DNA from: a virus
Virus record (IMG/VR): IMGVR_UViG_3300014656_000002
Coordinates: 2,771-66,770 of that record
DNA: 64,000 nucleotides
Direction: 5' to 3' (one strand)
Shown here: positions 1,695-43,330 of the stretch, one piece after another
Numbering within the stretch: the stretch's first letter is position 1
How the letters are laid out: every line of letters begins with the position of its first letter
Notes under the pieces: generated by a model
The model's database searches: none
What the model was told of the DNA's origin: nothing
The model's input: only the letters and a program-made list of their open reading frames with translations
Program-made: the position numbers and the translations under genes

Positions 1695-1699
1695 AACCC

Positions 1700-2430
1700 T
1701 GAAACACTAGCGGTGTCTTCCGTCCCACCGCCACGAACAGCCAGCAAGCGCAACAAGGACGCCGTTGGGCACAGCGTAATTAAACGGTTGCTGGCTGTTC
1801 GTGAGGGGGGAGGGTGGGGCGACGCCCTGCTCTTTATGGGGCAGGCCCTCGGCGCTAGTGGCGCGTCGCCCATGTTGGATAAGTCCGGCCCTGTCGCCCG
1901 GAGCACACCGGGCCGTGCAGCCGCAATCAGGGCGTCCTACATATGTTATTGGGCTTGCGGAAACCCTCACTCACAACATTCACACACAATTTTGCCGGGC
2001 CGGATTGCCCGTACCGCACGAGGCGGTTAGTTATCCCGCCAGCGCTGCCTCCAATCGCACCCATCTAGGCCGTCAGGCGAGCGCTCGCGGGGTGTTGCAA
2101 ATGGACGCGCTGGGAACCGCCCCCAGGTCTCCCGCCGCGCTTGCGCGTCTTACGCGAGATCGAATTCTGTTCGCGCCCAGGTACTACAGTTGGCGCGGAC
2201 GGTGCTGCCCCGCCCCCGCTGGCCTGTCCGGCCAGTGCCCCGCTGGGGGCCGCGCGCCATGGGTTAGTCGATGTGCTGCATTTAGCAACGCTTCAGCGCT
2301 GCTCGGAGCCAGCCAGCACGTCTCAGCGGTTCGCTGGCCTTCACTAGCTAACGCGGCCTGCCGTCACAGGTGGCTCCGAGCAATGCTGAAACTAGAGGCC
2401 AGCGCCCCGCTGGGGGACGCGCGCCATGGG
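1700..2430. ncRNA. candidate large structured non-coding RNA region
   Basis: no credible ORF; perfect 16-bp stem 1732-1747/1788-1803, multibranch near 1817-1871, stem 2035-2046/2080-2091, 20-bp stem 2292-2311/2371-2390. Confidence 0.4.
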
Positions 2431-2444
2431 TTAGTCGATGTGCT
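2230..2444. repeat. 48-bp direct repeat (2230-2277 and 2397-2444, 2 mismatches)
   Basis: GGCCAGyGCCCCGCTGGGGGmCGCGCGCCATGGGTTAGTCGATGTGCT occurs twice; second copy includes the end of the HNH gene. Confidence 0.9.
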
Positions 2445-2940
2445 TATACGTCTGTCTTTTGATACACGCCTCGGCTGTGCTATAAGACACCCCATAGCGG
2501 GCCGCCATTTCGGTATATGAATATCGACCAGTGGCCCATTCCGCCCGCAGAGCGCGCACTTGCTGCTCAGTCAAACGGGCGCGCACTCCATTGGTTAATC
2601 CAAGAAAGTCGGTTGCCCTGTTTACGTTCTCGAACTGCGTGATAAACTGGAGGTTTTCTAAGCGGTTATCGTGCTTCTTATGGTTGATATGATCGACGAT
2701 CATGTCTTCAGGACAGGGGCCTACAAAGACCTCCATGATCAAAACATGCAATGATACATGCCGTTGTTTGCCGCAATTTGATAATGCTATATCTTGATAC
2801 TGGTCGGGAATTGGCCCAGACAGAATACGTGTCTGCGGTACATAGGGCCGCTTCAGGCTTTTGACCCGTCCCTGATCGCTTACCTCATACAGCCCCTCAT
2901 AACCAGGGACAGCGCGCCATTCTTCTGTGCTATAATCCAT
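2431..2940 (-). CDS. NUMOD4-HNH homing endonuclease with C-terminal HTH
   Basis: EEWRAVPGYEGLYEVSDQGRVKS (NUMOD4); VDHINHKKHDNRLENL (HNH); LTEQQVRALR...MAARYGVS. Confidence 0.9.
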   Translation of the reverse strand: MDYSTEEWRAVPGYEGLYEVSDQGRVKSLKRPYVPQTRILSGPIPDQYQDIALSNCGKQRHVSLHVLIMEVFVGPCPEDMIVDHINHKKHDNRLENLQFITQFENVNRATDFLGLTNGVRARLTEQQVRALRAEWATGRYSYTEMAARYGVSYSTAEACIKRQTYKHID

Positions 2941-4519: not shown

Positions 4520-5002
4520 TTATTTTTGTAATGAGTTTGTATGCAACCATCCGAATGATGGCATTACAAATCCGTTTGGAATATCATGCAACCGCTTAGC
4601 TCTGATTTCGTGGCCCGTGACGGTCGCTGGCTTTTTGTAATCCTGCCCTAAAAAGAACCGCCTATCTGATCCGTGCTTTACATTCTCCGTATGTGTCGTA
4701 TATTCAAGATTGGAGAAGTGGTTATTTAGCGTGTCACCGTCCAAGTGATTGACAACCATACCTGGAGGGCAGGGGCCTATAAATGCAAAAGCAACAAGGC
4801 GGTGGGCACCATAAGTCTTGGTGACCCCACTTTTGCTCAGCCCATACAATATGTATCCATTTGTGGATTGTTTGCTGCGCAACATCCTAGTGGTTTTGAA
4901 GCGCCCCTTAGGGTAACTTAGGACTTCGCCGAATTCACTAACGCTATAAAGCCCTTCATAGCCAGGGATTGCGCGCCACTCTGCATTTATGTTATGCTTC
5001 AT
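4520..5002 (-). CDS. NUMOD4-HNH homing endonuclease
   Basis: EWRAIPGYEGLYSVSEFGEV; AHRLVAFAFIGPCP..VVNHLDGDTLNNHFSNLEY. Confidence 0.9.
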   Translation of the reverse strand: MKHNINAEWRAIPGYEGLYSVSEFGEVLSYPKGRFKTTRMLRSKQSTNGYILYGLSKSGVTKTYGAHRLVAFAFIGPCPPGMVVNHLDGDTLNNHFSNLEYTTHTENVKHGSDRRFFLGQDYKKPATVTGHEIRAKRLHDIPNGFVMPSFGWLHTNSLQK

Positions 5003-5332: not shown

Positions 5333-5411
5333 ATTATAAGCGATCTTTTTCCCATTTGCAATTATCAATTTTCAAGTTGCCTATTGACACGCGGCTCAAT
5401 CGTAGTATAAT
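5333..5411. promoter_or_regulatory. divergent promoter pair
   Basis: plus: TTGACA(5384)-16-TATAAT(5406); minus: TTGCAA(5361-5356)-17-TATAAT(5338-5333); lies at the strand switch. Confidence 0.75.
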
Positions 5412-5450
5412 TAGAGCATAGAACGAGAGCAGCCAATCGGGAGCCACCAA

Positions 5451-38377: not shown

Positions 38378-39550
38378 TTATCTCCTGTTTCGTTCTTGCC
38401 AAGCCTTCACGTCCTCATCATCGCGCGGGCGCACATCGGCTACCTCAGGCAGCGCGGGCGGTAATTTCACCGCTGGCATCTGCTGAGGCTCCGTGCCGCC
38501 CACGCGCTCAACGACGCGCGACTTGGTCACGTCTCTAGACTTAGAAATCTCGTCTTCCAGAATGCCGTCCCACTGTGTCAGGTCGGCCTCCGTTAGACGT
38601 TTGCGCAGACTGGTTTCCCACTTGGAAGGCAGGTTGGCCTTCCGCAGCATCTGCTCTATTCCAAGATTACGCCTTGCCTCGAATAACGCAGCGTTCGCCT
38701 CATCGGCCACCCGCTGCGCTTCCGCCAGCAGACTCGCGTCCTGGTCAGCATGTGCAGTCAACTTAGTCTGTGCTTCCTCTAGCGCTTGTTCCGCGCTCTT
38801 AAGCGCCTCGCGTAGCTGGTCAGCCTCGGCTTCCGCCGCCTTAACCGCTTCCGTTTGGCGCACAACCTGCCATTCTTTCTTGAGTTGTTCCACATACCCT
38901 GGCTGAGCCTCGCGCCACTCGTCAAACGAGAGCGCGCCCAACAGCCCCGCCGTCAATTCATCCCCCGCGCTGGCCGCCAGATACATACCCCCGGCGGCGG
39001 GCGTGGTCACATCATCCACGCTGATCGCGGCGGTGATGCTCTCGACTTCAAGCGCCTCGCCATCGTCATAGGCTTTCTTGGAGCCGACACCCGCCGCGCG
39101 AATGGACAGCCCGGCCAGTGACTTGGGCGCACGCCCGGTCACAATGTCTTCGGCCAGCGCCCACACGTCCTGCCCGGCTTGGGTGCGCGAGAACACACGA
39201 TCTCCGCGTAGCGCCCCCTCGGCATAGTGGACGTTCTCATACCAGCCCGTAAGATCGCGCACGCTGCGCTCTGGCATATTCTTGCTGTCCGTCTTGCCAG
39301 GATGATCCGCGTAGGCTTTCGCGCCCTCGAAGATCGTTTGCGCATCTTGCAACACCTTGTCCGAGTAGAAGCGCCGATTAGCGCTCATCCCCGCACGAAT
39401 AAGCACCACGCCCCGAATCACGCGGGCTTCGGTGTCGGCAACGGCCTCGCTCAGGTCCAGCGCTTCGGCAAACACGAGCGCGTGACCCACGGGCGCGGCA
39501 ATCTCGGTCACTTCCTGCTTAGTTCCAGAATTCGGCGTCTGTTTCTTCAT
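38378..39550 (-). CDS. prohead protease-scaffold fusion
   Basis: SANRRFY, YADHP, GLSI, SVDDVTTPAAGG, then coiled coil. Confidence 0.85.
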   Translation of the reverse strand: MKKQTPNSGTKQEVTEIAAPVGHALVFAEALDLSEAVADTEARVIRGVVLIRAGMSANRRFYSDKVLQDAQTIFEGAKAYADHPGKTDSKNMPERSVRDLTGWYENVHYAEGALRGDRVFSRTQAGQDVWALAEDIVTGRAPKSLAGLSIRAAGVGSKKAYDDGEALEVESITAAISVDDVTTPAAGGMYLAASAGDELTAGLLGALSFDEWREAQPGYVEQLKKEWQVVRQTEAVKAAEAEADQLREALKSAEQALEEAQTKLTAHADQDASLLAEAQRVADEANAALFEARRNLGIEQMLRKANLPSKWETSLRKRLTEADLTQWDGILEDEISKSRDVTKSRVVERVGGTEPQQMPAVKLPPALPEVADVRPRDDEDVKAWQERNRR

Positions 39551-41675
39551 CCCACCACCAATCGCTTTCCGTGCCTACCGCTATAGCCGTTCCCGTTTCA
39601 AATTGGCTCAAGAGTTGCAATACACCCAGCGCCCCGGCGAAATCCCAAAACGTCTCGCGCGGGCCACTGTCCCTCGATAAGGCCGGTAAATCATAAAGGT
39701 CCTTCACCCACGGGATCAACGCACATCGGCAGTTCTTGACAATAACACCATTGCAGGTGTATAATTGATAGGGTTCAACTTGGAGGTCATACACATGTCC
39801 ACTGAAATCGAAATCCCTAACCTGAACGATCTCATCACTCGTTATGAGTCCGGCGAATCGCTCCCCAAACTGGCGCGCGAGGCTGGCGTCGATTACAAGG
39901 TTCTGTGGAGACGCCTTCGCGCCCTCGGTGTGGAAATCAGAGACAGGCGCATTGATATCCCGGACATTGACGCCCTGATTGTTCGCTACCTTGCCGGAGA
40001 GTCCGAGCAATCCATCGCCAAAGATGCTGGCATAGGACGGGGCGTATTTCGTCGTCGCCTTCTCGAACAAGGGATTCAGCCCAGAAACATATCTGACAGC
40101 ATGTATATCCGCTGGCAAAACGCTACCCCCGAACAAGGTTCCAAGATGCTTGAAGCTGCCCACGAGGCTTGCCGGGGCCGCGTTCGCTCCCTCGAAGAAC
40201 TCGCCAAGGCCGCTCTCAGCCGCGAGGCCAAGTGCCTGCATGCCTCCCCTGTCGAGCGCCGACTTGCCCGCTGGCTCCGTAAACGCGGGGTAGATGTCGT
40301 CCAGCAAAAGGCCGTCCACATTTACAACCTCGACATCGCCGTCAATGAACCGCCCATCGCCATAGAAATCTTCGGCGGAAACTTTCACTCGTCCGGGAAC
40401 CACCGCGCTAGATTCCACAAACGCACTAAATACCTCCTCGATCATGGCTGGTCGGTACTTATCATCTGGGTTGACGGCAGAAACTACCCGCTCGACATCA
40501 ATGGCGCGAAGCACGTGCTGTCCTACATTCAAGAGCTTCGCGAAAACCCACCCACCCGGAGTCAGTATCGGGTGATTCGGGGTAACGGTGATCTTGCGCC
40601 CATCAGCAAAACTAATTTCAACAGCAGGGCCGACATAAAGCGACTTGGTTGCTCCAACTAACTTGCCGGGAAGCCCGACCTCGTTGCCCGGAAGAATACA
40701 ATTCGGGTGGGTATCCACCACCGGGCGCGGGATCATCATGTCATCAATCGCCCACTGCTGCCCGTCCAGCGCCCGGCACTCAGGGCACGCGCCCACCCTG
40801 GACGCGCTCCACTCGACCCCCTGCAACACGTCCGCATTGTTGCGGTACAACTCCAAGGCCCCGGCGTTGCTGGCCTCGACAATGTAGGAACGCGTGAGCG
40901 TCTGCACCTTGTTGAAATTGGCCCGATAGCTGCCCGCCCGTGGTCCCGGTGTACCCATGCGCGCCACGCGCCCCTGATAGGCCGTCAGGCGGCGGTCCGT
41001 TGTAACCCCCAACACACTGGCCACCCCGCGCATGGCTTGCGGGATGCTATGCCCCTGGGCCAGCGAGGCGTTCAGGCTGCGCATGATGCCGCTTACGACC
41101 GCCGTCTGTTGGTTGCCATACTCCGCCTGCCATTGTTTGCCCAGTAGGTCGTACACCATCTGCCACTGTTGCTGTTCACGCGGGCCGCCCTCTTTGAGCG
41201 TTGGGATCGTCACCTGTTCGGCGGCGCGTTCCGGGTCCGGCGTCGGCACGCTGATCGGGGCCTCCGGCGCGCTGGCTTCGTTGACTACCCAGGCTCGCCC
41301 GTAATACCCCACGTGATAGGCCAGCATGGCCGAGCGAAACGCTTGCTCCGCCAGGGCGTCGTACATTCGCGGCGTGTCCTGGGAGACTGCCGCCACAAGC
41401 GCACGCTGCCAGCGCACGCCTGCCCCCGTGGGTTCTAGCTTGCCTACCCCGTAATGTGTCGCCAACGAGGCCGCGTGCTGGTTCAGGCGCTTGTACAGGG
41501 CGCGAAACACCTGATACTGAACCCCAACCGCCCGATCTTCCCAGTCGTATAACCGCCGCTGGATGAACGTCTCCGCCACCAGGGGCGGTTGCTTGCCCCC
41601 GAACGTGTTGGCAGGCAACAACGGCTTGCCGTCTACATTCAGGATGCGGGCGATCTGGCGCTTGGTGTAGGTCAC
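39519..41675 (-). CDS. Mu gpF/SPP1 gp7-like head morphogenesis protein interrupted by an intein
   Basis: CPECRALDG...THPN[intein]CRC; lies between portal and protease. Confidence 0.9.
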   Translation of the reverse strand: MTYTKRQIARILNVDGKPLLPANTFGGKQPPLVAETFIQRRLYDWEDRAVGVQYQVFRALYKRLNQHAASLATHYGVGKLEPTGAGVRWQRALVAAVSQDTPRMYDALAEQAFRSAMLAYHVGYYGRAWVVNEASAPEAPISVPTPDPERAAEQVTIPTLKEGGPREQQQWQMVYDLLGKQWQAEYGNQQTAVVSGIMRSLNASLAQGHSIPQAMRGVASVLGVTTDRRLTAYQGRVARMGTPGPRAGSYRANFNKVQTLTRSYIVEASNAGALELYRNNADVLQGVEWSASRVGACPECRALDGQQWAIDDMMIPRPVVDTHPNCILPGNEVGLPGKLVGATKSLYVGPAVEISFADGRKITVTPNHPILTPGGWVFAKLLNVGQHVLRAIDVERVVSAVNPDDKYRPAMIEEVFSAFVESSAVVPGRVKVSAEDFYGDGRFIDGDVEVVNVDGLLLDDIYPAFTEPAGKSALDRGGMQALGLAAESGLGEFFEGANAAPASLVGSFKHLGTLFGGSVLPADIHAVRYVSGLNPLFEKATTKYAPSYASIFGDGLLGLSGKVANNQGVNVRDINAPVSDFHTEGAKASPQNLVIDASLARQFGERFAGLITSDEIVQVRDFDFSGHVYDLQVEPYQLYTCNGVIVKNCRCALIPWVKDLYDLPALSRDSGPRETFWDFAGALGVLQLLSQFETGTAIAVGTESDWWWDEETDAEFWN
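39736..39797 (+). promoter_or_regulatory. consensus sigma70 promoter, RBS and start codon inside the intein 3' end
   Basis: TTGACA 39736-41, 18-nt spacer, TATAAT 39760-65, GGAGGT 39782-87, ATG 39795. Confidence 0.85.
39795..40661 (+). CDS. HTH-repeat + Vsr/DUF559-like endonuclease nested antisense within the intein
   Basis: two HTH repeats (RYESGESLPKLAREAGV / RYLAGESEQSIAKDAGI); SPVERRL...YNLDIA...IAIEIFGGNFH...L...GWSVLIIW. Confidence 0.88.
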   Translation: MSTEIEIPNLNDLITRYESGESLPKLAREAGVDYKVLWRRLRALGVEIRDRRIDIPDIDALIVRYLAGESEQSIAKDAGIGRGVFRRRLLEQGIQPRNISDSMYIRWQNATPEQGSKMLEAAHEACRGRVRSLEELAKAALSREAKCLHASPVERRLARWLRKRGVDVVQQKAVHIYNLDIAVNEPPIAIEIFGGNFHSSGNHRARFHKRTKYLLDHGWSVLIIWVDGRNYPLDINGAKHVLSYIQELRENPPTRSQYRVIRGNGDLAPISKTNFNSRADIKRLGCSN

Positions 41676-43330
41676 TGCGCGTTCCGCTCCCGCCGCAACT
41701 GCTGCTGGGCTTGCGCCAGCTCAGGAGGCGTCACGTCCGGCGCGCTGTCCGCCTGCCCGTTGCCATTGTCCTGGGCGGGCAACCCCTCCGGTCGTTGGGT
41801 GGGTGGCGGTGGCAAAGTGCCATCGCGCACGTCGTTGGCAATAGCCTGTTCCTCCATCGCCATAAGCCGCTGCTCTTTCTGGTAGTCGTACCCACGTTCG
41901 GCGGCCGCCGTCTGGCGGCTCACAAGCTCATTCGCCAAGTCCATCGTGATGGCGTTAGCAATATTCACCGGGTCGCTGGATGACAGCGGCTCGTAGCTCA
42001 CCTCGAAGGCTTTACTAGCCTCCACCGTGCGCGGCTGCTGTTTGTAGTCCTGCATTACCTCGCCGTCGCTGTCGTGCATGGGCAACTCGCTCGCCAGCAG
42101 CCCGTCTTCCACCAGCGCCTCAATCACGCGCTTAAAGAGCGGCGTCAACACGCGTTCGATCATGATCTGCTGGAAGTCCTGGAACTTGGTTAGCGCCGGG
42201 AGTTCCTGCGACGTGCTAGAGGCCAGGTTGGCGTTCGCCCCGTCCGCAAAGAAATACTCAGGCAGGCGCAGCCCGGCGGCAATCGCCAGCTTCATCTGCC
42301 GCCCGTCTTCGCCCGCGTCGCTGCCGTTGACGCTGTTCTGAACCGCGTTGATCTCTTCCTTGTCCGAGCCGACGTAGATCGATCCCGGCGTGGGCGGCTT
42401 CTTCCAGCGCGCAGCAATCGTGGTTAGCGCCGCCGCGCTGGTCGTCACGACCTTGACCCACCACAGTAACGCCCCGCGCCAATAGTTCTGCCGGGCGCGG
42501 TCTTCCAGCCACTCGCGCCACGCCCGCAGCCAGGGCAGCACCACGAACAACTCAGGCCGTCCGCGCAATTCATACGCGTGTTTGTTGATCGGCACAAACA
42601 GGATGTCTTCGGCGGCGATGTCCTCTGCCTCGGCCATCATCCCGCCGTCTTGATTGCGGAACTTGAAACAGAACTTGACCGGCCTGCCATTCTCGGTTTC
42701 GATCTTCTCAAGCTCCCACGGGCGCAGGGGCAACACCGCCATGTCCGCCCCCTGCCCTTCCAGCCGCGCCACGATCTCGCCGTCCACCTGCAAGTCTTTC
42801 AGCCAACTCTTCTCAAGCTGGCGCAGGTCGCTGTTTTCGATGAATGCCTCAAGCGCCGCTTCCACGGCCTTGTTGTGGAACGTGACATTGAACCCGTCGC
42901 CCACCACAAAGCCCACCGTGTAATCCACGGCCGCCTTGGCAAGCGGGTGGCGCTGGTAGGCCGCGTGACAATTGGAAAGCACCTGCTCGCGGGTGGCGTT
43001 GTTCCACTCGCACAGAGGATCGTCGGCGGCGGGCGGGATCGCCATGTCCCAGGCCGACCGGTTGGGCGCGTCGAACTGGAAGCGCATCGTGGTGCGCGCG
43101 TCCACCTCGGCCAGATATTTAGTCACCTGATCTTCGGACATCTCGGCGCGCATGTACCCAGGCAGCAACACGGGCATGTCATACCACGCCCCGTCGCGAA
43201 TGCCGCGCGGGTTAGCGTCAGCCACGAGGTGTCCCTGTGGCACCACGTCCTGCGCCCCACGCATAGCCCAGGTTAGGAGCGCGCGTTGCGCCCGGTTGAC
43301 CTGTCGCTTAACGTAACCAGTAAGTCCCAT
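41672..43330 (-). CDS. portal protein
   Basis: HPLAKAAVDY..FVVGDG, DGEI, RGRPEL, GLRLPEYF...ANLAS; follows terminase. Confidence 0.85.
   Translation of the reverse strand: MGLTGYVKRQVNRAQRALLTWAMRGAQDVVPQGHLVADANPRGIRDGAWYDMPVLLPGYMRAEMSEDQVTKYLAEVDARTTMRFQFDAPNRSAWDMAIPPAADDPLCEWNNATREQVLSNCHAAYQRHPLAKAAVDYTVGFVVGDGFNVTFHNKAVEAALEAFIENSDLRQLEKSWLKDLQVDGEIVARLEGQGADMAVLPLRPWELEKIETENGRPVKFCFKFRNQDGGMMAEAEDIAAEDILFVPINKHAYELRGRPELFVVLPWLRAWREWLEDRARQNYWRGALLWWVKVVTTSAAALTTIAARWKKPPTPGSIYVGSDKEEINAVQNSVNGSDAGEDGRQMKLAIAAGLRLPEYFFADGANANLASSTSQELPALTKFQDFQQIMIERVLTPLFKRVIEALVEDGLLASELPMHDSDGEVMQDYKQQPRTVEASKAFEVSYEPLSSSDPVNIANAITMDLANELVSRQTAAAERGYDYQKEQRLMAMEEQAIANDVRDGTLPPPPTQRPEGLPAQDNGNGQADSAPDVTPPELAQAQQQLRRERNAQ

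What the first reader, a model, noticed from the sequence alone, without database searches (positions are those of the whole stretch)
39732..40700. Intein whose homing endonuclease is a separate gene encoded antisense inside the intein
Seen: the gpF-like gene is split in its conserved HPN|CRC motif by a 323-aa intein with blocks A, B, F and G. The roughly 200-aa central region has no LAGLIDADG or HNH motif and reads like shadow translation. The opposite strand carries a 288-aa ORF (39795-40661) lying wholly inside the intein, codon-for-codon in register, and overlapping even block B. It encodes two HTH repeats plus a Vsr/DUF559-like nuclease. Established: canonical inteins carry the endonuclease in frame between blocks B and F, and Vsr-like EDxHD nucleases are a known homing endonuclease class. 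Inference: this is a two-strand selfish element in which one strand splices out to keep the host protein functional and the other independently makes the homing nuclease. I cannot confirm novelty without a literature search.
Basis: partly seen in the sequence, partly recalled or inferred. Interest (0 to 1): 0.95.

Follow-up and report, generated by a model that had tools for sequence, protein, structure and literature searches.

The report
Intein with antisense homing-endonuclease gene
A self-splicing protein insert (intein) in this phage's head-assembly gene carries the gene for its DNA-cutting mobility enzyme on the opposite DNA strand, codon against codon; this is real and under selection, but a 2025 preprint already described the layout.

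Summary
The minus-strand ORF 39519-41675 is a MuF-like head-morphogenesis gene. A 323-aa class-1 intein (39732-40700) interrupts it at HPN|CRC. Six intein-less homologues, up to 73% identical, have the motif contiguous.

The plus-strand ORF 39795-40661 (288 aa) lies inside the intein in exact antisense codon register. It encodes two HTH repeats and a Vsr/EDxHD-type nuclease core (Z 11.5 to Vsr, 9.6 to I-Bth0305I).

In 132 of 132 related loci the intein frame stays open across the whole nuclease gene. In the same loci, 126 of 609 control windows do. Selection switches strand along the element: minus in the exteins and blocks A and G, plus in the centre (dN/dS 0.12-0.22 against 0.5-1.1), and both over the Hint N-lobe.

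A perfect sigma-70 promoter, a GGAGG and the ATG are written antisense in intein blocks F and G. Synonymous-codon shuffles show these signals are selected across the family.

The architecture is not new. Gosselin, Arsenault and Gogarten (bioRxiv 2025) report antisense VSR-like endonucleases in full inteins of actinophage minor capsid proteins, and this scan has met it many times on other DNA.

Verdict: real, and a new member of a known kind. Splicing, expression and cleavage remain inferred.

The parts
39519..41675 (-). MuF-like head-morphogenesis (minor capsid) gene, 718-aa precursor including the intein
   Evidence: ORF. Pfam Phage_Mu_F E 0.0026 and PHROG head or minor head proteins. Six intein-less homologues were found, five carrying PF04233. 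The portal-like ORF lies upstream and the scaffold- and capsid-like ORFs downstream on the same strand (those names are my reading of the translations, not tested).
39732..40700 (-). Class-1 intein, 323 aa: Cys1, block B T40/H43, block F G301-H302-V303-Y304-D-L306, Lys322-Asn323, followed by Cys+1
   Evidence: Pfam Intein_splicing. Invariant C1, H43 and N323 in 105 aligned inteins. AF2 pLDDT is 85-98 for residues 1-130 and 89-98 for 270-323. Z 12.8 to the Mtu RecA intein splicing domain. Intein-less alleles have HPxCRC contiguous.
40701..41675 (-). N-extein (325 aa), ending in ...DTHPN
   Evidence: The closest relative, P0100, is 73% identical and lacks the intein.
39519..39731 (-). C-extein (70 aa plus stop), starting with CRCALIPWV
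39795..40661 (+). Homing-endonuclease gene, 288 aa plus stop, wholly inside the intein and in antisense codon register (nuclease residue n shares its codon with intein residue 303-n)
   Evidence: 99 homologues in the protein database, some named very-short-patch-repair endonuclease by JGI. AF2 mean pLDDT 87. Plus-frame dN/dS 0.03-0.32 over the catalytic core.
39822..40067 (+). Two helix-turn-helix repeats (nuclease residues about 10-43 and 58-91), the presumed DNA-recognition part
   Evidence: Pfam HTH_58 at aa 22-61. Helices in the AF2 model. The profile matches the tandem-HTH protein 2lvs at E 2.6e-6 over positions 10-94.
40236..40631 (+). Vsr/EDxHD-type nuclease core (nuclease residues 148-279), with family-invariant Y177, N178, D180, E191, R210 and near-invariant G194, G195, H198, Y213
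   Evidence: invariant columns; 1cw0_A Z 11.5, rmsd 2.4 A, 116 aligned; 3hrl Z 10.0; 3r3p_A Z 9.6; 3r3p 1.8e-5, 3hrl 4e-5. Pfam MTES_1575 and DUF559.
39736..39765 (+). Sigma-70 consensus promoter TTGACA-18 nt-TATAAT (12 of 12), written antisense in the intein block G codons I-V-K and Q-L-Y
   Evidence: It is one of only two sites scoring 11 of 12 or better on either strand of the 64-kb window. Promoter-like sites sit at the same position in 57 of 103 loci, against 7.4% in synonymous shuffles.
39782..39797 (+). Shine-Dalgarno GGAGG (39782-39786), 8-nt spacer, ATG (39795-39797). This is antisense to the block F codons D-L-Q and to His302.
   Evidence: sequence. SD plus start is present in 81 of 103 loci, against 23% in synonymous shuffles. 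The Leu codon is CTC in 79 of 88 (background 23%). The His codon is CAT in 66 and CAC in 14.
40560..40601 (-). Intein block B (GRKITVTPNHPILT, residues 34-47), antisense to the conserved nuclease motif QYRVIxGxG
   Evidence: for the intein consensus, for the nuclease consensus. Both frames have dN/dS below 1 here.
39915..40304 (-). Central intein linker (residues 133-262). It is only the shadow translation of the nuclease gene, kept free of stops.
   Evidence: AF2 pLDDT 36-50. Minus-frame dN/dS 0.49-1.11 against plus-frame 0.12-0.22 in 5 of 6 pairs with a defined value. Amino-acid diversity is 0.82 on minus against 0.66 on plus.

Best explanation
This is a mobile intein whose two functions are divided between the two DNA strands.

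The minus strand. The late MuF-like head gene is translated straight through a 323-aa class-1 intein inserted at the conserved HPN|CRC motif. The Hint domain is made of residues 1 to about 105 plus 270-323. It should splice itself out and restore a head protein of about 395 aa. The roughly 130 residues between the two Hint parts are a disordered linker. The only requirement on that linker is that it contains no stop codon.

The plus strand. The same DNA, in exact antisense codon register, is a separate gene with its own signals: a sigma-70 promoter (TTGACA at 39736, TATAAT at 39760), GGAGG at 39782 and ATG at 39795. It encodes a 288-aa endonuclease with two HTH repeats, a helical linker and a Vsr/EDxHD-type catalytic core.

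Inferred mechanism. In a mixed infection the nuclease cuts the intein-less MuF allele near the HPN|CRC codons. Repair from the intein-bearing genome then copies intein and nuclease gene together.

What is shown here: both folds, the insertion site, open frames on both strands across the family, strand-specific purifying selection, and nucleotide-level selection for the expression signals.

What is inferred: splicing, transcription and translation of the plus gene, cleavage specificity, homing, and early host-polymerase expression of the nuclease set against late expression of the head gene.
For: Family and fold
- Pfam hits on both frames.
- Nuclease model with pLDDT 87. Vsr Z 11.5, 3hrl Z 10.0, I-Bth0305I Z 9.6. 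Profile hits to 3r3p at 1.8e-5.
- Intein model: Hint parts have pLDDT 85-98 and the centre is below 50. Z 12.8 to the Mtu RecA intein, and all 50 listed rows are inteins or Hint domains.

Insertion site
- Six of six intein-less homologues have HPxCRC contiguous.
- 114 of 118 distinct loci have Cys1, and 115 of 118 have the terminal Asn plus Cys+1.

Conservation of the architecture
- 132 of 132 loci keep the intein frame open across the nuclease, against 126 of 609 control windows.
- In 4 of 4 annotated phage records inspected (Gordonia Vivi2, Salmonella PK2, Pseudomonas BR313c, Aaphi23) the match lies antisense to the MuF gene.
- 132 phage records hold a relative of the nuclease.

Selection
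- Per-position diversity switches from minus position 3 (exteins, blocks A and G) to plus position 3 (intein 101-285).
- NG86 dN/dS in the centre: plus 0.12-0.22 in 5 of 6 pairs with a defined value, minus 0.49-1.11.
- Catalytic core: plus 0.03-0.32, minus 0.66-2.98.
- Hint N-lobe overlap: both below 1.

Expression signals
- Perfect promoter, one of two in the window.
- SD plus start in 81 of 103 loci against 23% in shuffles. Promoter in 57 of 103 against 7.4%. Leu codon CTC in 79 of 88 against a 23% background.

Foreign origin
- GC falls to 0.52-0.60 in the element, against 0.63-0.67 in the flanks.
Against: - No experiment or RNA data bears on this phage. The five public runs that hold it are all DNA, from groundwater metagenomes.
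- No empty allele was seen in the four runs laid on the region, so mobility of this particular copy is not shown.
- The penultimate intein residue is Lys, not the canonical His. That can slow Asn cyclisation in some inteins (recalled, not tested).
- The Foldseek E-values for both models are weak: 0.003-0.03. The fold calls rest on VIA-align Z-scores and on sequence profiles.
- One of the six pairs with a defined value (L009-L016) shows plus-frame dN/dS of 0.84 in the centre.
- The loci are related by descent. The counts are therefore not independent events, and no P-values are claimed.
- 33 of 56 loci with a penultimate His have no sigma-70-like promoter at this place. How those copies are transcribed is unknown.
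Confidence: 0.88

Rival explanations
1. The plus-strand ORF is a shadow ORF. It would be a by-product of the intein's codon usage in a GC-rich genome and would make no protein.
For: The antisense register with plus position 1 opposite minus position 3 is the one most often open by chance. 126 of 609 control windows were open. The window has 60% GC.
Against: The plus frame matches three Pfam families. It folds confidently into HTH repeats plus a Vsr core. It has 99 database homologues. It is the frame under purifying selection in the centre. It is intact in loci with GC as low as 0.34. It has a selected SD, start codon and promoter.
Confidence: 0.02
2. This is a fractured gene in the sense of Dassa et al. 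2009. The head gene would be expressed as two polypeptides with split-intein halves that trans-splice, and the open minus frame across the nuclease gene would be incidental.
For: Vsr-like endonuclease genes were first described between split-intein halves in phage-like metagenome loci (PMC2677866, passages read). The central 130 intein residues are predicted to be disordered.
Against: The minus frame is uninterrupted in 132 of 132 loci, including low-GC ones. That needs selection. [quoted passage not shown] No internal stop and restart signals for a C-terminal half were seen.
Confidence: 0.02
3. The element is real, but the nuclease no longer drives homing. It could be a domesticated or decaying gene. 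It might be kept for phage-phage exclusion, for regulation through its HTH domains, or for an antisense-RNA effect on the head gene. It might also be kept only because changes in it are constrained by the intein.
For: No empty allele or joint was seen in the four metagenome runs. The closest intein (L027, nuclease 54% identical) also has the closest intein-bearing extein tail (43%), which fits vertical descent. The preprint reports mostly vertical patterns for VSR-like cases (section 15).
Against: Plus-frame dN/dS is 0.03-0.32 in the catalytic core, where the minus frame is unconstrained (0.66-2.98). So the nuclease protein itself is selected. All family-invariant residues are present in the window's copy. 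An intein-less allele with a 73% identical extein exists. The element's GC differs from that of its flanks.
Confidence: 0.15
4. The intein centre encodes an unrecognised in-frame endonuclease or DNA-binding domain on the minus strand, and the plus ORF is secondary.
For: The intein-frame consensus has a conserved EDFHGD string. AF2 gives pLDDT 85-91 to intein residues 106-130.
Against: EDFHGD is the codon-for-codon antisense of the nuclease motif IAVEIF (read). Minus-frame dN/dS over residues 106-132 is 0.66-2.98. Residues 133-262 have pLDDT below 50. Pfam finds no domain in the centre. The confident stretch at 106-130 may reflect covariation imposed by the other strand.
Confidence: 0.02

Closest known systems
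Antisense VSR-like homing endonucleases in full inteins of actinobacteriophage minor capsid proteins (Gosselin, Arsenault and Gogarten, bioRxiv 10.1101/2025.01.02.630785, version of Oct 2025; abstract, sections 8 and 15 and passages read)
   Same: A contiguous intein in a minor capsid (MuF) gene, with a VSR-like endonuclease ORF on the antisense strand. The in-frame centre has no recognisable structure. Their model matches 1CW0 at Z 10.6 over residues 144-267; here it is Z 11.5 over 148-279. They found 3R3P by HHpred; here the profile E is 1.8e-5. Gordonia phages of their database appear among my hits.
   Different: The window is an uncultured groundwater phage of unknown host with 60% GC. Relatives here also lie in Salmonella, Pseudomonas, Klebsiella, Vibrio and Aggregatibacter phages, and in genomes or MAGs labelled with many phyla. 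[quoted passage not shown] Here about 100 codons are shared with the Hint N-lobe and 33 with block F. Its main text does not contain the word promoter (0 occurrences). The signals in blocks F and G, the strand switch of selection and the stop-codon control are additions made here. Its supplements could not be seen.
Fractured genes: split inteins with a free-standing Vsr-like or GIY-YIG endonuclease gene between the halves (Dassa et al. 2009, PMC2677866; passages read)
   Same: The same endonuclease superfamily, a phage context, and a separate endonuclease gene with its own control elements sitting inside an intein.
   Different: There the host gene is broken into two ORFs. [quoted passage not shown] Here the host ORF is continuous and the endonuclease gene is antisense and fully overlapped.
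I-Bth0305I, the EDxHD / Vsr-like homing endonuclease of a group I intron in recA of Bacillus phage 0305phi8-36 (PDB 3R3P; Taylor et al. 2011, PMC3239194; search listing and abstract start only)
   Same: Catalytic-core fold (Z 9.6, rmsd 2.9 A, 96 aligned) and a profile match (E 1.8e-5). Both are carried by a self-splicing element in a phage gene.
   Different: The carrier is an intron, not an intein. In the alignment the family-invariant D180 here is opposite an Ala in 3R3P, so the active sites may differ. The N-terminal DNA-binding part here is two HTH repeats.
Antisense LAGLIDADG endonucleases in inteins (Synechocystis DnaX; Chloroflexus SpoVR-like). Known to me only as cited by the preprint (Gorbalenya 1998; Gogarten et al. 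2002); the original papers were not seen.
   Same: A homing-endonuclease ORF on the strand opposite to the intein.
   Different: A different nuclease family and different host genes. I could not read the originals (one search did not find them).
Canonical bifunctional inteins with an in-frame LAGLIDADG or HNH domain (for example PI-PfuI 1dq3 and the TliVMA intein 7qss, which appear)
   Same: Hint fold, insertion at a conserved site, and the endonuclease placed between blocks B and F in the DNA.
   Different: The endonuclease here is not part of the intein polypeptide.

Membership tests
Intein (class 1, Hint fold) | Nucleophile (Cys/Ser/Thr) at intein position 1 | tested here: met
   Cys1 in the window. 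114 of 118 distinct loci have it; the misses are at contig ends. Invariant in 105 aligned inteins.
Intein (class 1, Hint fold) | Block B Thr-x-x-His | tested here: met
   T40-P-N-H43. H43 is invariant, and T40 and N42 are conserved in 90% or more.
Intein (class 1, Hint fold) | C-terminal Asn followed by Cys/Ser/Thr at +1 | tested here: met
   Asn323 followed by Cys. 115 of 118 loci.
Intein (class 1, Hint fold) | Penultimate His in block G | tested here: not met
   Lys322 in the window. Across the family it is His in 59, Ser in 31 and Lys in 23 of 118. That known active inteins also lack this His is recalled, not tested.
Intein (class 1, Hint fold) | Hint fold | tested here: met
   AF2 model against 2in0: Z 12.8, rmsd 1.5 A, 108 aligned. 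All 50 listed rows are inteins or Hint domains.
Intein (class 1, Hint fold) | In-frame insertion at a conserved site, with intein-less homologues contiguous across it | tested here: met
   Six of six intein-less homologues read HPxCRC.
Intein (class 1, Hint fold) | Protein splicing | not testable with these tools
   Needs expression of the precursor.
Vsr-like / EDxHD homing endonucleases | Vsr-type catalytic core fold | tested here: met
   1cw0_A Z 11.5 (rmsd 2.4 A, 116 aligned), 1vsr Z 11.1, 3hrl Z 10.0, 3r3p_A Z 9.6. Foldseek probability 1.00 but E 0.01-0.03.
Vsr-like / EDxHD homing endonucleases | Sequence-profile relation to a characterised member | tested here: met
   Profile A1 against 3r3p_A E 1.8e-5 and 3hrl_A 4e-5. 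Pfam MTES_1575 is just above its cut-off (38.6 against 38.2 bits) and DUF559 likewise (20.8 against 20.6).
Vsr-like / EDxHD homing endonucleases | Equivalent catalytic residues | tested here: inconclusive
   D180, E191 and H198 are invariant or nearly so. E191 aligns with Glu in 3R3P, but D180 aligns with Ala. Mapping to Vsr Asp51/His69 was not done residue by residue.
Vsr-like / EDxHD homing endonucleases | Site-specific cleavage of the element-free allele | not testable with these tools
   Needs purified protein and a substrate.
Antisense VSR-like HEN inteins (Gosselin et al. 2025) | Contiguous intein with a VSR-like ORF on the antisense strand, in a minor capsid protein | tested here: met
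   The exteins of 66 of 101 loci match Phage_Mu_F, 9 match Phage_min_cap2 and 4 match VG15 at E up to 0.01.
Antisense VSR-like HEN inteins (Gosselin et al. 2025) | Actinobacteriophage host | not testable with these tools
   The window is an IMG/VR record with direct terminal repeats. The runs that hold it are groundwater metagenomes. The host is unknown.
Fractured gene with split intein (Dassa et al. 2009) | Host gene broken into two ORFs carrying the intein halves | tested here: not met
   One continuous ORF in the window and in 132 of 132 loci.

The most novel reading that the evidence does not exclude
The overlap is an integrated two-strand design rather than a tolerated accident.

First, intein splicing blocks F and G double as the promoter, ribosome-binding site and start codon of the endonuclease gene. 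His302 (CAT) gives the ATG, D-L-Q (GAC CTC CAA) gives GGAGG, and I-V-K and Q-L-Y give TTGACA and TATAAT. The need for a -35 box would explain why the canonical penultimate His is replaced: Lys goes with a full promoter in 20 of 21 loci, and His in 3 of 56.

Second, about 100 codons specify two folded domains at once, the Hint N-lobe and the Vsr core.

Third, the element is a pan-bacterial phage parasite of one site in MuF rather than an actinophage curiosity.

A consensus host-type promoter facing a late head gene would also give early nuclease expression and late intein expression from the same DNA.
Probability: 0.5. Interest if true: 0.55.

Novelty: new member of a known kind. Interest (0 to 1): 0.35.

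Why it matters
It is a clean natural case of long antisense dual coding. About 870 bases are read on both strands, and about 130 of those codons lie in confidently predicted folded parts of both proteins.

It shows how a free-standing endonuclease gene can live inside an intein without being fused to it. That bears on how inteins acquired their endonucleases.

It also has a practical side. The nuclease gene goes unannotated in most of the phage genomes inspected, because gene callers keep only the longer MuF ORF. In the four records inspected, only Salmonella phage PK2 annotates a hypothetical protein there.

The kind is already in a preprint. What this window adds is breadth beyond actinophages, the strand-switch selection test, and the expression signals written into the splicing motifs.

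Tried and rejected
- Close relatives of the N-extein in IMG/VR: none matched the peptide patterns. I used the protein database instead.
- RNA evidence: no RNA holder is listed among the five runs that hold the stretch.
- Laying Logan contigs of four groundwater runs on 38500-42500 gave no joint across the intein and no differing letters. This says nothing about expression and does not exclude empty alleles elsewhere.
- Foldseek against the PDB gave no match at E up to 0.001 for either model. I relied on VIA-align re-scoring of Foldseek's own lists and on sequence profiles.
- Literature searches that found nothing relevant: intein + homing endonuclease + opposite strand (the one promising paper, PMC8966425, uses the phrase for a cleavage site); intein/antisense/endonuclease/MuF; intein + MupF (0 papers; the name MupF was recalled); non-canonical inteins / Gorbalenya (original not held).
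- The antisense architecture was found in print only in the bioRxiv preprint.
The preprint's Supplemental Table 1 and Supplemental Figures 1-2 list and depict its VSR-like cases. They may already show the register, the overlap with splicing blocks or the expression signals, and I could not check.
- Considered and rejected: shadow ORF, split intein, in-frame endonuclease (see the rival explanations).
- Not done: an intein-first, unbiased survey of decayed plus-strand ORFs; a phylogenetically corrected test of the codon biases; residue-by-residue mapping of the active site onto Vsr; a search of the 1.84-billion representative library; a complex prediction.
- Rows dropped:
  - skipped L002, which was fetched in the other orientation. 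One of the 134 sequences (133 loci plus the window) had no tblastn match at 1e-5.
  - onward used 118 loci distinct in the matched DNA.
  - Searches used the 106 with complete Cys1...Asn inteins. L001-L004 were excluded from that set and so from the structure job, and L073 and L132 were left out of the alignment, which gave 105 rows with the window.
  - One search used 103 of 107; four had fewer than 100 extein codons.
  - One search dropped 6 of 106 because their N-extein tails were shorter than 70 aa.
  - evaluated 7 of 8 listed pairs, because L019 had been removed as a duplicate. L077 enters three of those pairs and L078 two, so the pairs are not independent.

Full report
WHAT IS THERE. The window belongs to a 66,770-bp IMG/VR virus record with direct terminal repeats, estimated 100% complete. 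Public runs that hold it are groundwater metagenomes. On the minus strand a head module runs through the region. It contains a 552-aa portal-like ORF, then the 718-aa ORF 39519-41675, then scaffold-like and capsid-like ORFs (those three names are my reading of the translations and were not tested).

The 718-aa protein matches Pfam Intein_splicing (E 3.6e-10, aa 347-648) and Phage_Mu_F (E 0.0026, aa 256-326, profile positions 35-107 of 112). It also matches PHROG head and minor head protein families. It reads ...DTHPN|CILPGNEV...NGVIVKN|CRCALIP, which gives an intein of 323 aa at 39732-40700.

The plus strand holds an ORF at 39765-40661. Its ATG at 39795 gives 288 aa. Plus codon position 1 lies opposite minus codon position 3, so nuclease residue n shares its codon with intein residue 303-n. 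The plus protein matches REase_MTES_1575 (1.1e-9), HTH_58 (1.2e-5) and DUF559 (3.5e-4) in Pfam, and a PHROG homing-endonuclease family (8.5e-4).

THE INTEIN. Six intein-less homologues of the N-extein were found (342-386 aa, up to 73% identical; five of the six carry PF04233). All six read HPxCRC without interruption where the window has HPN-intein-CRC.

Among 118 distinct related loci, 114 have Cys1 and 115 have a terminal Asn followed by Cys. The exceptions are cut by contig ends. In an alignment of 105 inteins, C1, G24, H43, G50, V303 and N323 are invariant, and T40, N42, G301, Y304 and L306 are nearly so.

The AlphaFold2 model built on that alignment has pLDDT 85-98 for residues 1-130 and 89-98 for residues 270-323. 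For residues 133-262 it is 36-50. VIA-align gives Z 12.8 (rmsd 1.5 A, 108 residues) to the Mtu RecA intein splicing domain. All 50 listed rows are inteins or Hint domains. Foldseek's own E-values were weak (6e-3).

The penultimate residue is Lys rather than His. Across the family it is His in 59, Ser in 31 and Lys in 23.

THE NUCLEASE. The protein database holds 99 homologues at E up to 1e-5, and JGI names several of them very-short-patch-repair endonuclease. In 24 aligned members Y177, N178, D180, E191, R210 and G218 are invariant, and G194, G195, H198 and Y213 are nearly so. The motif is YNxDIA...IAVEIFGGxWH.

The AF2 model has mean pLDDT 87. It shows two three-helix HTH units (residues 10-43 and 58-91), a helical linker and an alpha/beta core from about residue 148. 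VIA-align gives Vsr 1cw0_A Z 11.5 (rmsd 2.4 A, 116 aligned), 1vsr Z 11.1, the DUF559-like 3hrl Z 10.0 and the homing endonuclease I-Bth0305I 3r3p_A Z 9.6. Foldseek gave probability 1.00 but E 0.01-0.03 for these.

A profile of the family hits the tandem-HTH protein 2lvs (2.6e-6), 3r3p (1.8e-5) and 3hrl (4e-5) in PDB sequences. In that alignment E191 matches a Glu of I-Bth0305I but D180 lies opposite an Ala. I therefore leave the equivalence of the active sites open.

IS THE ARRANGEMENT CONSERVED? A tblastn search with the nuclease finds 132 phage records: Salmonella 64, Gordonia 15, Pseudomonas 15, Klebsiella 8 and others. In the 30 rows shown, the feature under the match is a MuF-like, minor capsid or head gene, or a hypothetical protein. 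In four of four records inspected the match is antisense to that gene. Only Salmonella phage PK2 annotates the antisense ORF, as a hypothetical protein.

A pattern search with the nuclease alignment gave 557 confirmed relatives among 585 candidate stretches in IMG/VR. It also gave 47 loci in species-representative genomes. Their record titles name Actinomycetota, Chloroflexota, Gemmatimonadota, Pseudomonadota, Bacteroidales, candidate phyla and others.

In 132 of 132 loci with a match, the antisense frame in this one register is open across the entire nuclease match. The other two antisense frames never are. As a control I took 609 windows of 230 codons from other long ORFs of the same loci. 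Of these, 126 (21%) lack TTA, CTA and TCA, against 130 of 130 nuclease matches. Locus GC spans 0.34-0.72. The control includes shadow ORFs, which makes it conservative.

The loci were chosen by likeness of the nuclease, not by continuity of the intein, so the continuity is a genuine observation. It also rules out a split-intein reading. All inteins sit at the same H-P-x|C-x-C site. The N-extein tails of 66 of 101 loci match Phage_Mu_F, 9 match Phage_min_cap2 and 4 match VG15 at E up to 0.01.

WHICH STRAND IS SELECTED WHERE? I measured per-column nucleotide diversity on a codon alignment of 118 loci.
- Exteins: diversity is highest at minus position 3 (0.68-0.69, against 0.56-0.57 at minus position 1).
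- Block A: 0.71 against 0.51.
- Block G: 0.61 against 0.42.
- Intein residues 101-160: the order reverses, with plus position 3 at 0.59 against 0.45.
- Intein residues 161-285: 0.69 against 0.55. Amino-acid diversity is also lower in the plus frame in these two regions (0.55 and 0.66) than in the minus frame (0.70 and 0.82).
- Residues 14-100 and 286-302: the two outer positions are about equal.

I then computed Nei-Gojobori dN/dS on seven moderately diverged pairs, which are not all independent.
- Centre (intein 133-262): plus 0.12-0.22 in five of six pairs with a defined value (the sixth is 0.84). Minus is 0.49-1.11.
- Nuclease catalytic core opposite intein 106-132: plus 0.03-0.32, minus 0.66-2.98.
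- Hint N-lobe overlap (intein 15-105, nuclease 198-288): plus 0.16-0.64, minus 0.36-0.84. Apparent dS is lowered in both frames, as expected when both proteins are constrained.

Two apparent motifs are shadows of the other strand. The intein-frame EDFHGD is the antisense of the nuclease's IAVEIF. The nuclease's YRVIxGxG is the antisense of intein block B TPNH (read). The confident AF2 stretch at intein 106-130 is not backed by selection on the minus frame. It may be an artefact of covariation imposed by the nuclease.

EXPRESSION SIGNALS. On the plus strand, TTGACA (39736-39741), an 18-nt spacer and TATAAT (39760-39765) form a 12-of-12 sigma-70 consensus. GGAGG lies at 39782-39786 and the ATG at 39795. 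Only two sites in the whole window, on either strand, score 11 of 12 or better. The other, at 5384, lies in an AT-rich stretch ahead of rightward ORFs.

All of these signals are inside intein blocks F and G, read backwards:
- I-V-K gives the -35 box.
- Q-L-Y gives the -10 box.
- D-L-Q gives the SD.
- His302 (CAT) gives the ATG.

I tested it across the family. An SD followed by a start codon is present in 81 of 103 loci. It is present in 23% of shuffles that keep the intein's amino acids and draw synonymous codons from each locus's extein usage. A promoter of at least 10 of 12, or an extended -10 box, is present in 57 of 103 loci against 7.4% in shuffles. The Leu of V-Y-D-L is CTC in 79 of 88 loci, against 23% of extein Leu codons. 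The codon opposite the start is CAT in 66 and CAC in 14.

The penultimate intein residue goes with the promoter type. Lys goes with a full promoter in 20 of 21 loci. Ser does in 13 of 29. His does in 3 of 56, with an extended -10 box in 20 and none recognised in 33; those 33 are mostly higher-GC loci. A consensus -35 at this offset needs a codon beginning AA at the penultimate position, which His cannot supply. These counts share ancestry, so I claim effect sizes and not probabilities.

MOBILITY. The element is lower in GC (0.52-0.60) than its flanks (0.63-0.67). The closest extein homologue lacks the intein.

The same phage sequence, with the intein and with no differences, occurs in runs of three studies. 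No contig bridges an empty site. Short contigs from other organisms in the same runs match block B, the nuclease motif and the promoter region, which suggests that other family members co-occur there. Homing of this copy is therefore plausible but not shown.

COMPARISON WITH WHAT IS KNOWN. Dassa et al. 2009 (PMC2677866, passages read) described Vsr-like endonuclease genes as free-standing inserts between split-intein halves. [quoted passage not shown]

Gosselin, Arsenault and Gogarten (bioRxiv 10.1101/2025.01.02.630785; abstract, sections 8 and 15 and passages read) report 63 actinophage inteins with non-canonical endonucleases. These include antisense VSR-like ones in full inteins. In their set the minor capsid protein inteins were exclusively non-canonical. 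Their VSR-like model matches 1CW0 at Z 10.6 and 3R3P by HHpred. They cite Gorbalenya 1998 and Gogarten 2002 for antisense LAGLIDADG endonucleases in inteins; I could not read those papers.

The architecture is therefore already described. This scan has also met it repeatedly on other DNA: 164 notes in at least 123 genomes hold the search words, and all eight follow-ups shown confirm it, several naming the same preprint.

What I did not find in the preprint's main text:
- the spread far beyond actinophages;
- the invariant register with a stop-codon control;
- the strand switch of selection;
- the expression signals (the word promoter does not occur).

VERDICT. It is a new member of a known kind, with incremental additions. 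Splicing, expression, cleavage and homing all remain to be shown at the bench.

Noticed in passing
window 4520-5002 (-) and 5384-5413 (+): A 160-aa ORF reads like a free-standing NUMOD4/HNH-type endonuclease (my reading of the translation, not tested). The only other perfect TTGACA-N16-TATAAT in the window sits at 5384, in an AT-rich stretch ahead of rightward ORFs. It may be an early promoter.
   Followed up: partly
window 40557-40603, 40323-40379, 39727-39765 (tables 7-8): Short contigs with unrelated flanks in the same groundwater runs match only block B, the nuclease catalytic motif or the promoter/block G stretch. This suggests that other members of this intein family, in other phages, co-occur in those samples.
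   Followed up: no
N-extein tails of related loci (alignment A4): A few N-extein tails themselves match Hint or intein models (Intein_splicing 2, PT-HINT 1, Hint_2 1, Vint 1 of 101). Some MuF genes may carry a second intein upstream. Two tails match TniQ weakly.
   Followed up: no
alignment A1 and loci L005-L133: The nucleases come in length classes of about 240 aa and about 290 aa. Many tblastn matches start near query residue 51, which fits one HTH repeat fewer. Inteins are correspondingly about 274 or about 323 aa. One homologue (P0047, 464 aa) has extra N-terminal repeats.
   Followed up: partly
intein residues 106-130 = window 40311-40385 (-): AF2 gives pLDDT 85-91 to a stretch whose minus-frame dN/dS is about 1 or higher. 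This may be a case of structure-prediction confidence inflated by covariation that comes from the gene on the other strand.
   Followed up: partly
L002 (Salmonella phage PK2, PV446483.1) 1696-2505 (-): Of the four annotated phage records inspected, this is the only one in which annotators called the antisense ORF, as a hypothetical protein. A second, nested 402-nt hypothetical ORF is called on the same strand.
   Followed up: no
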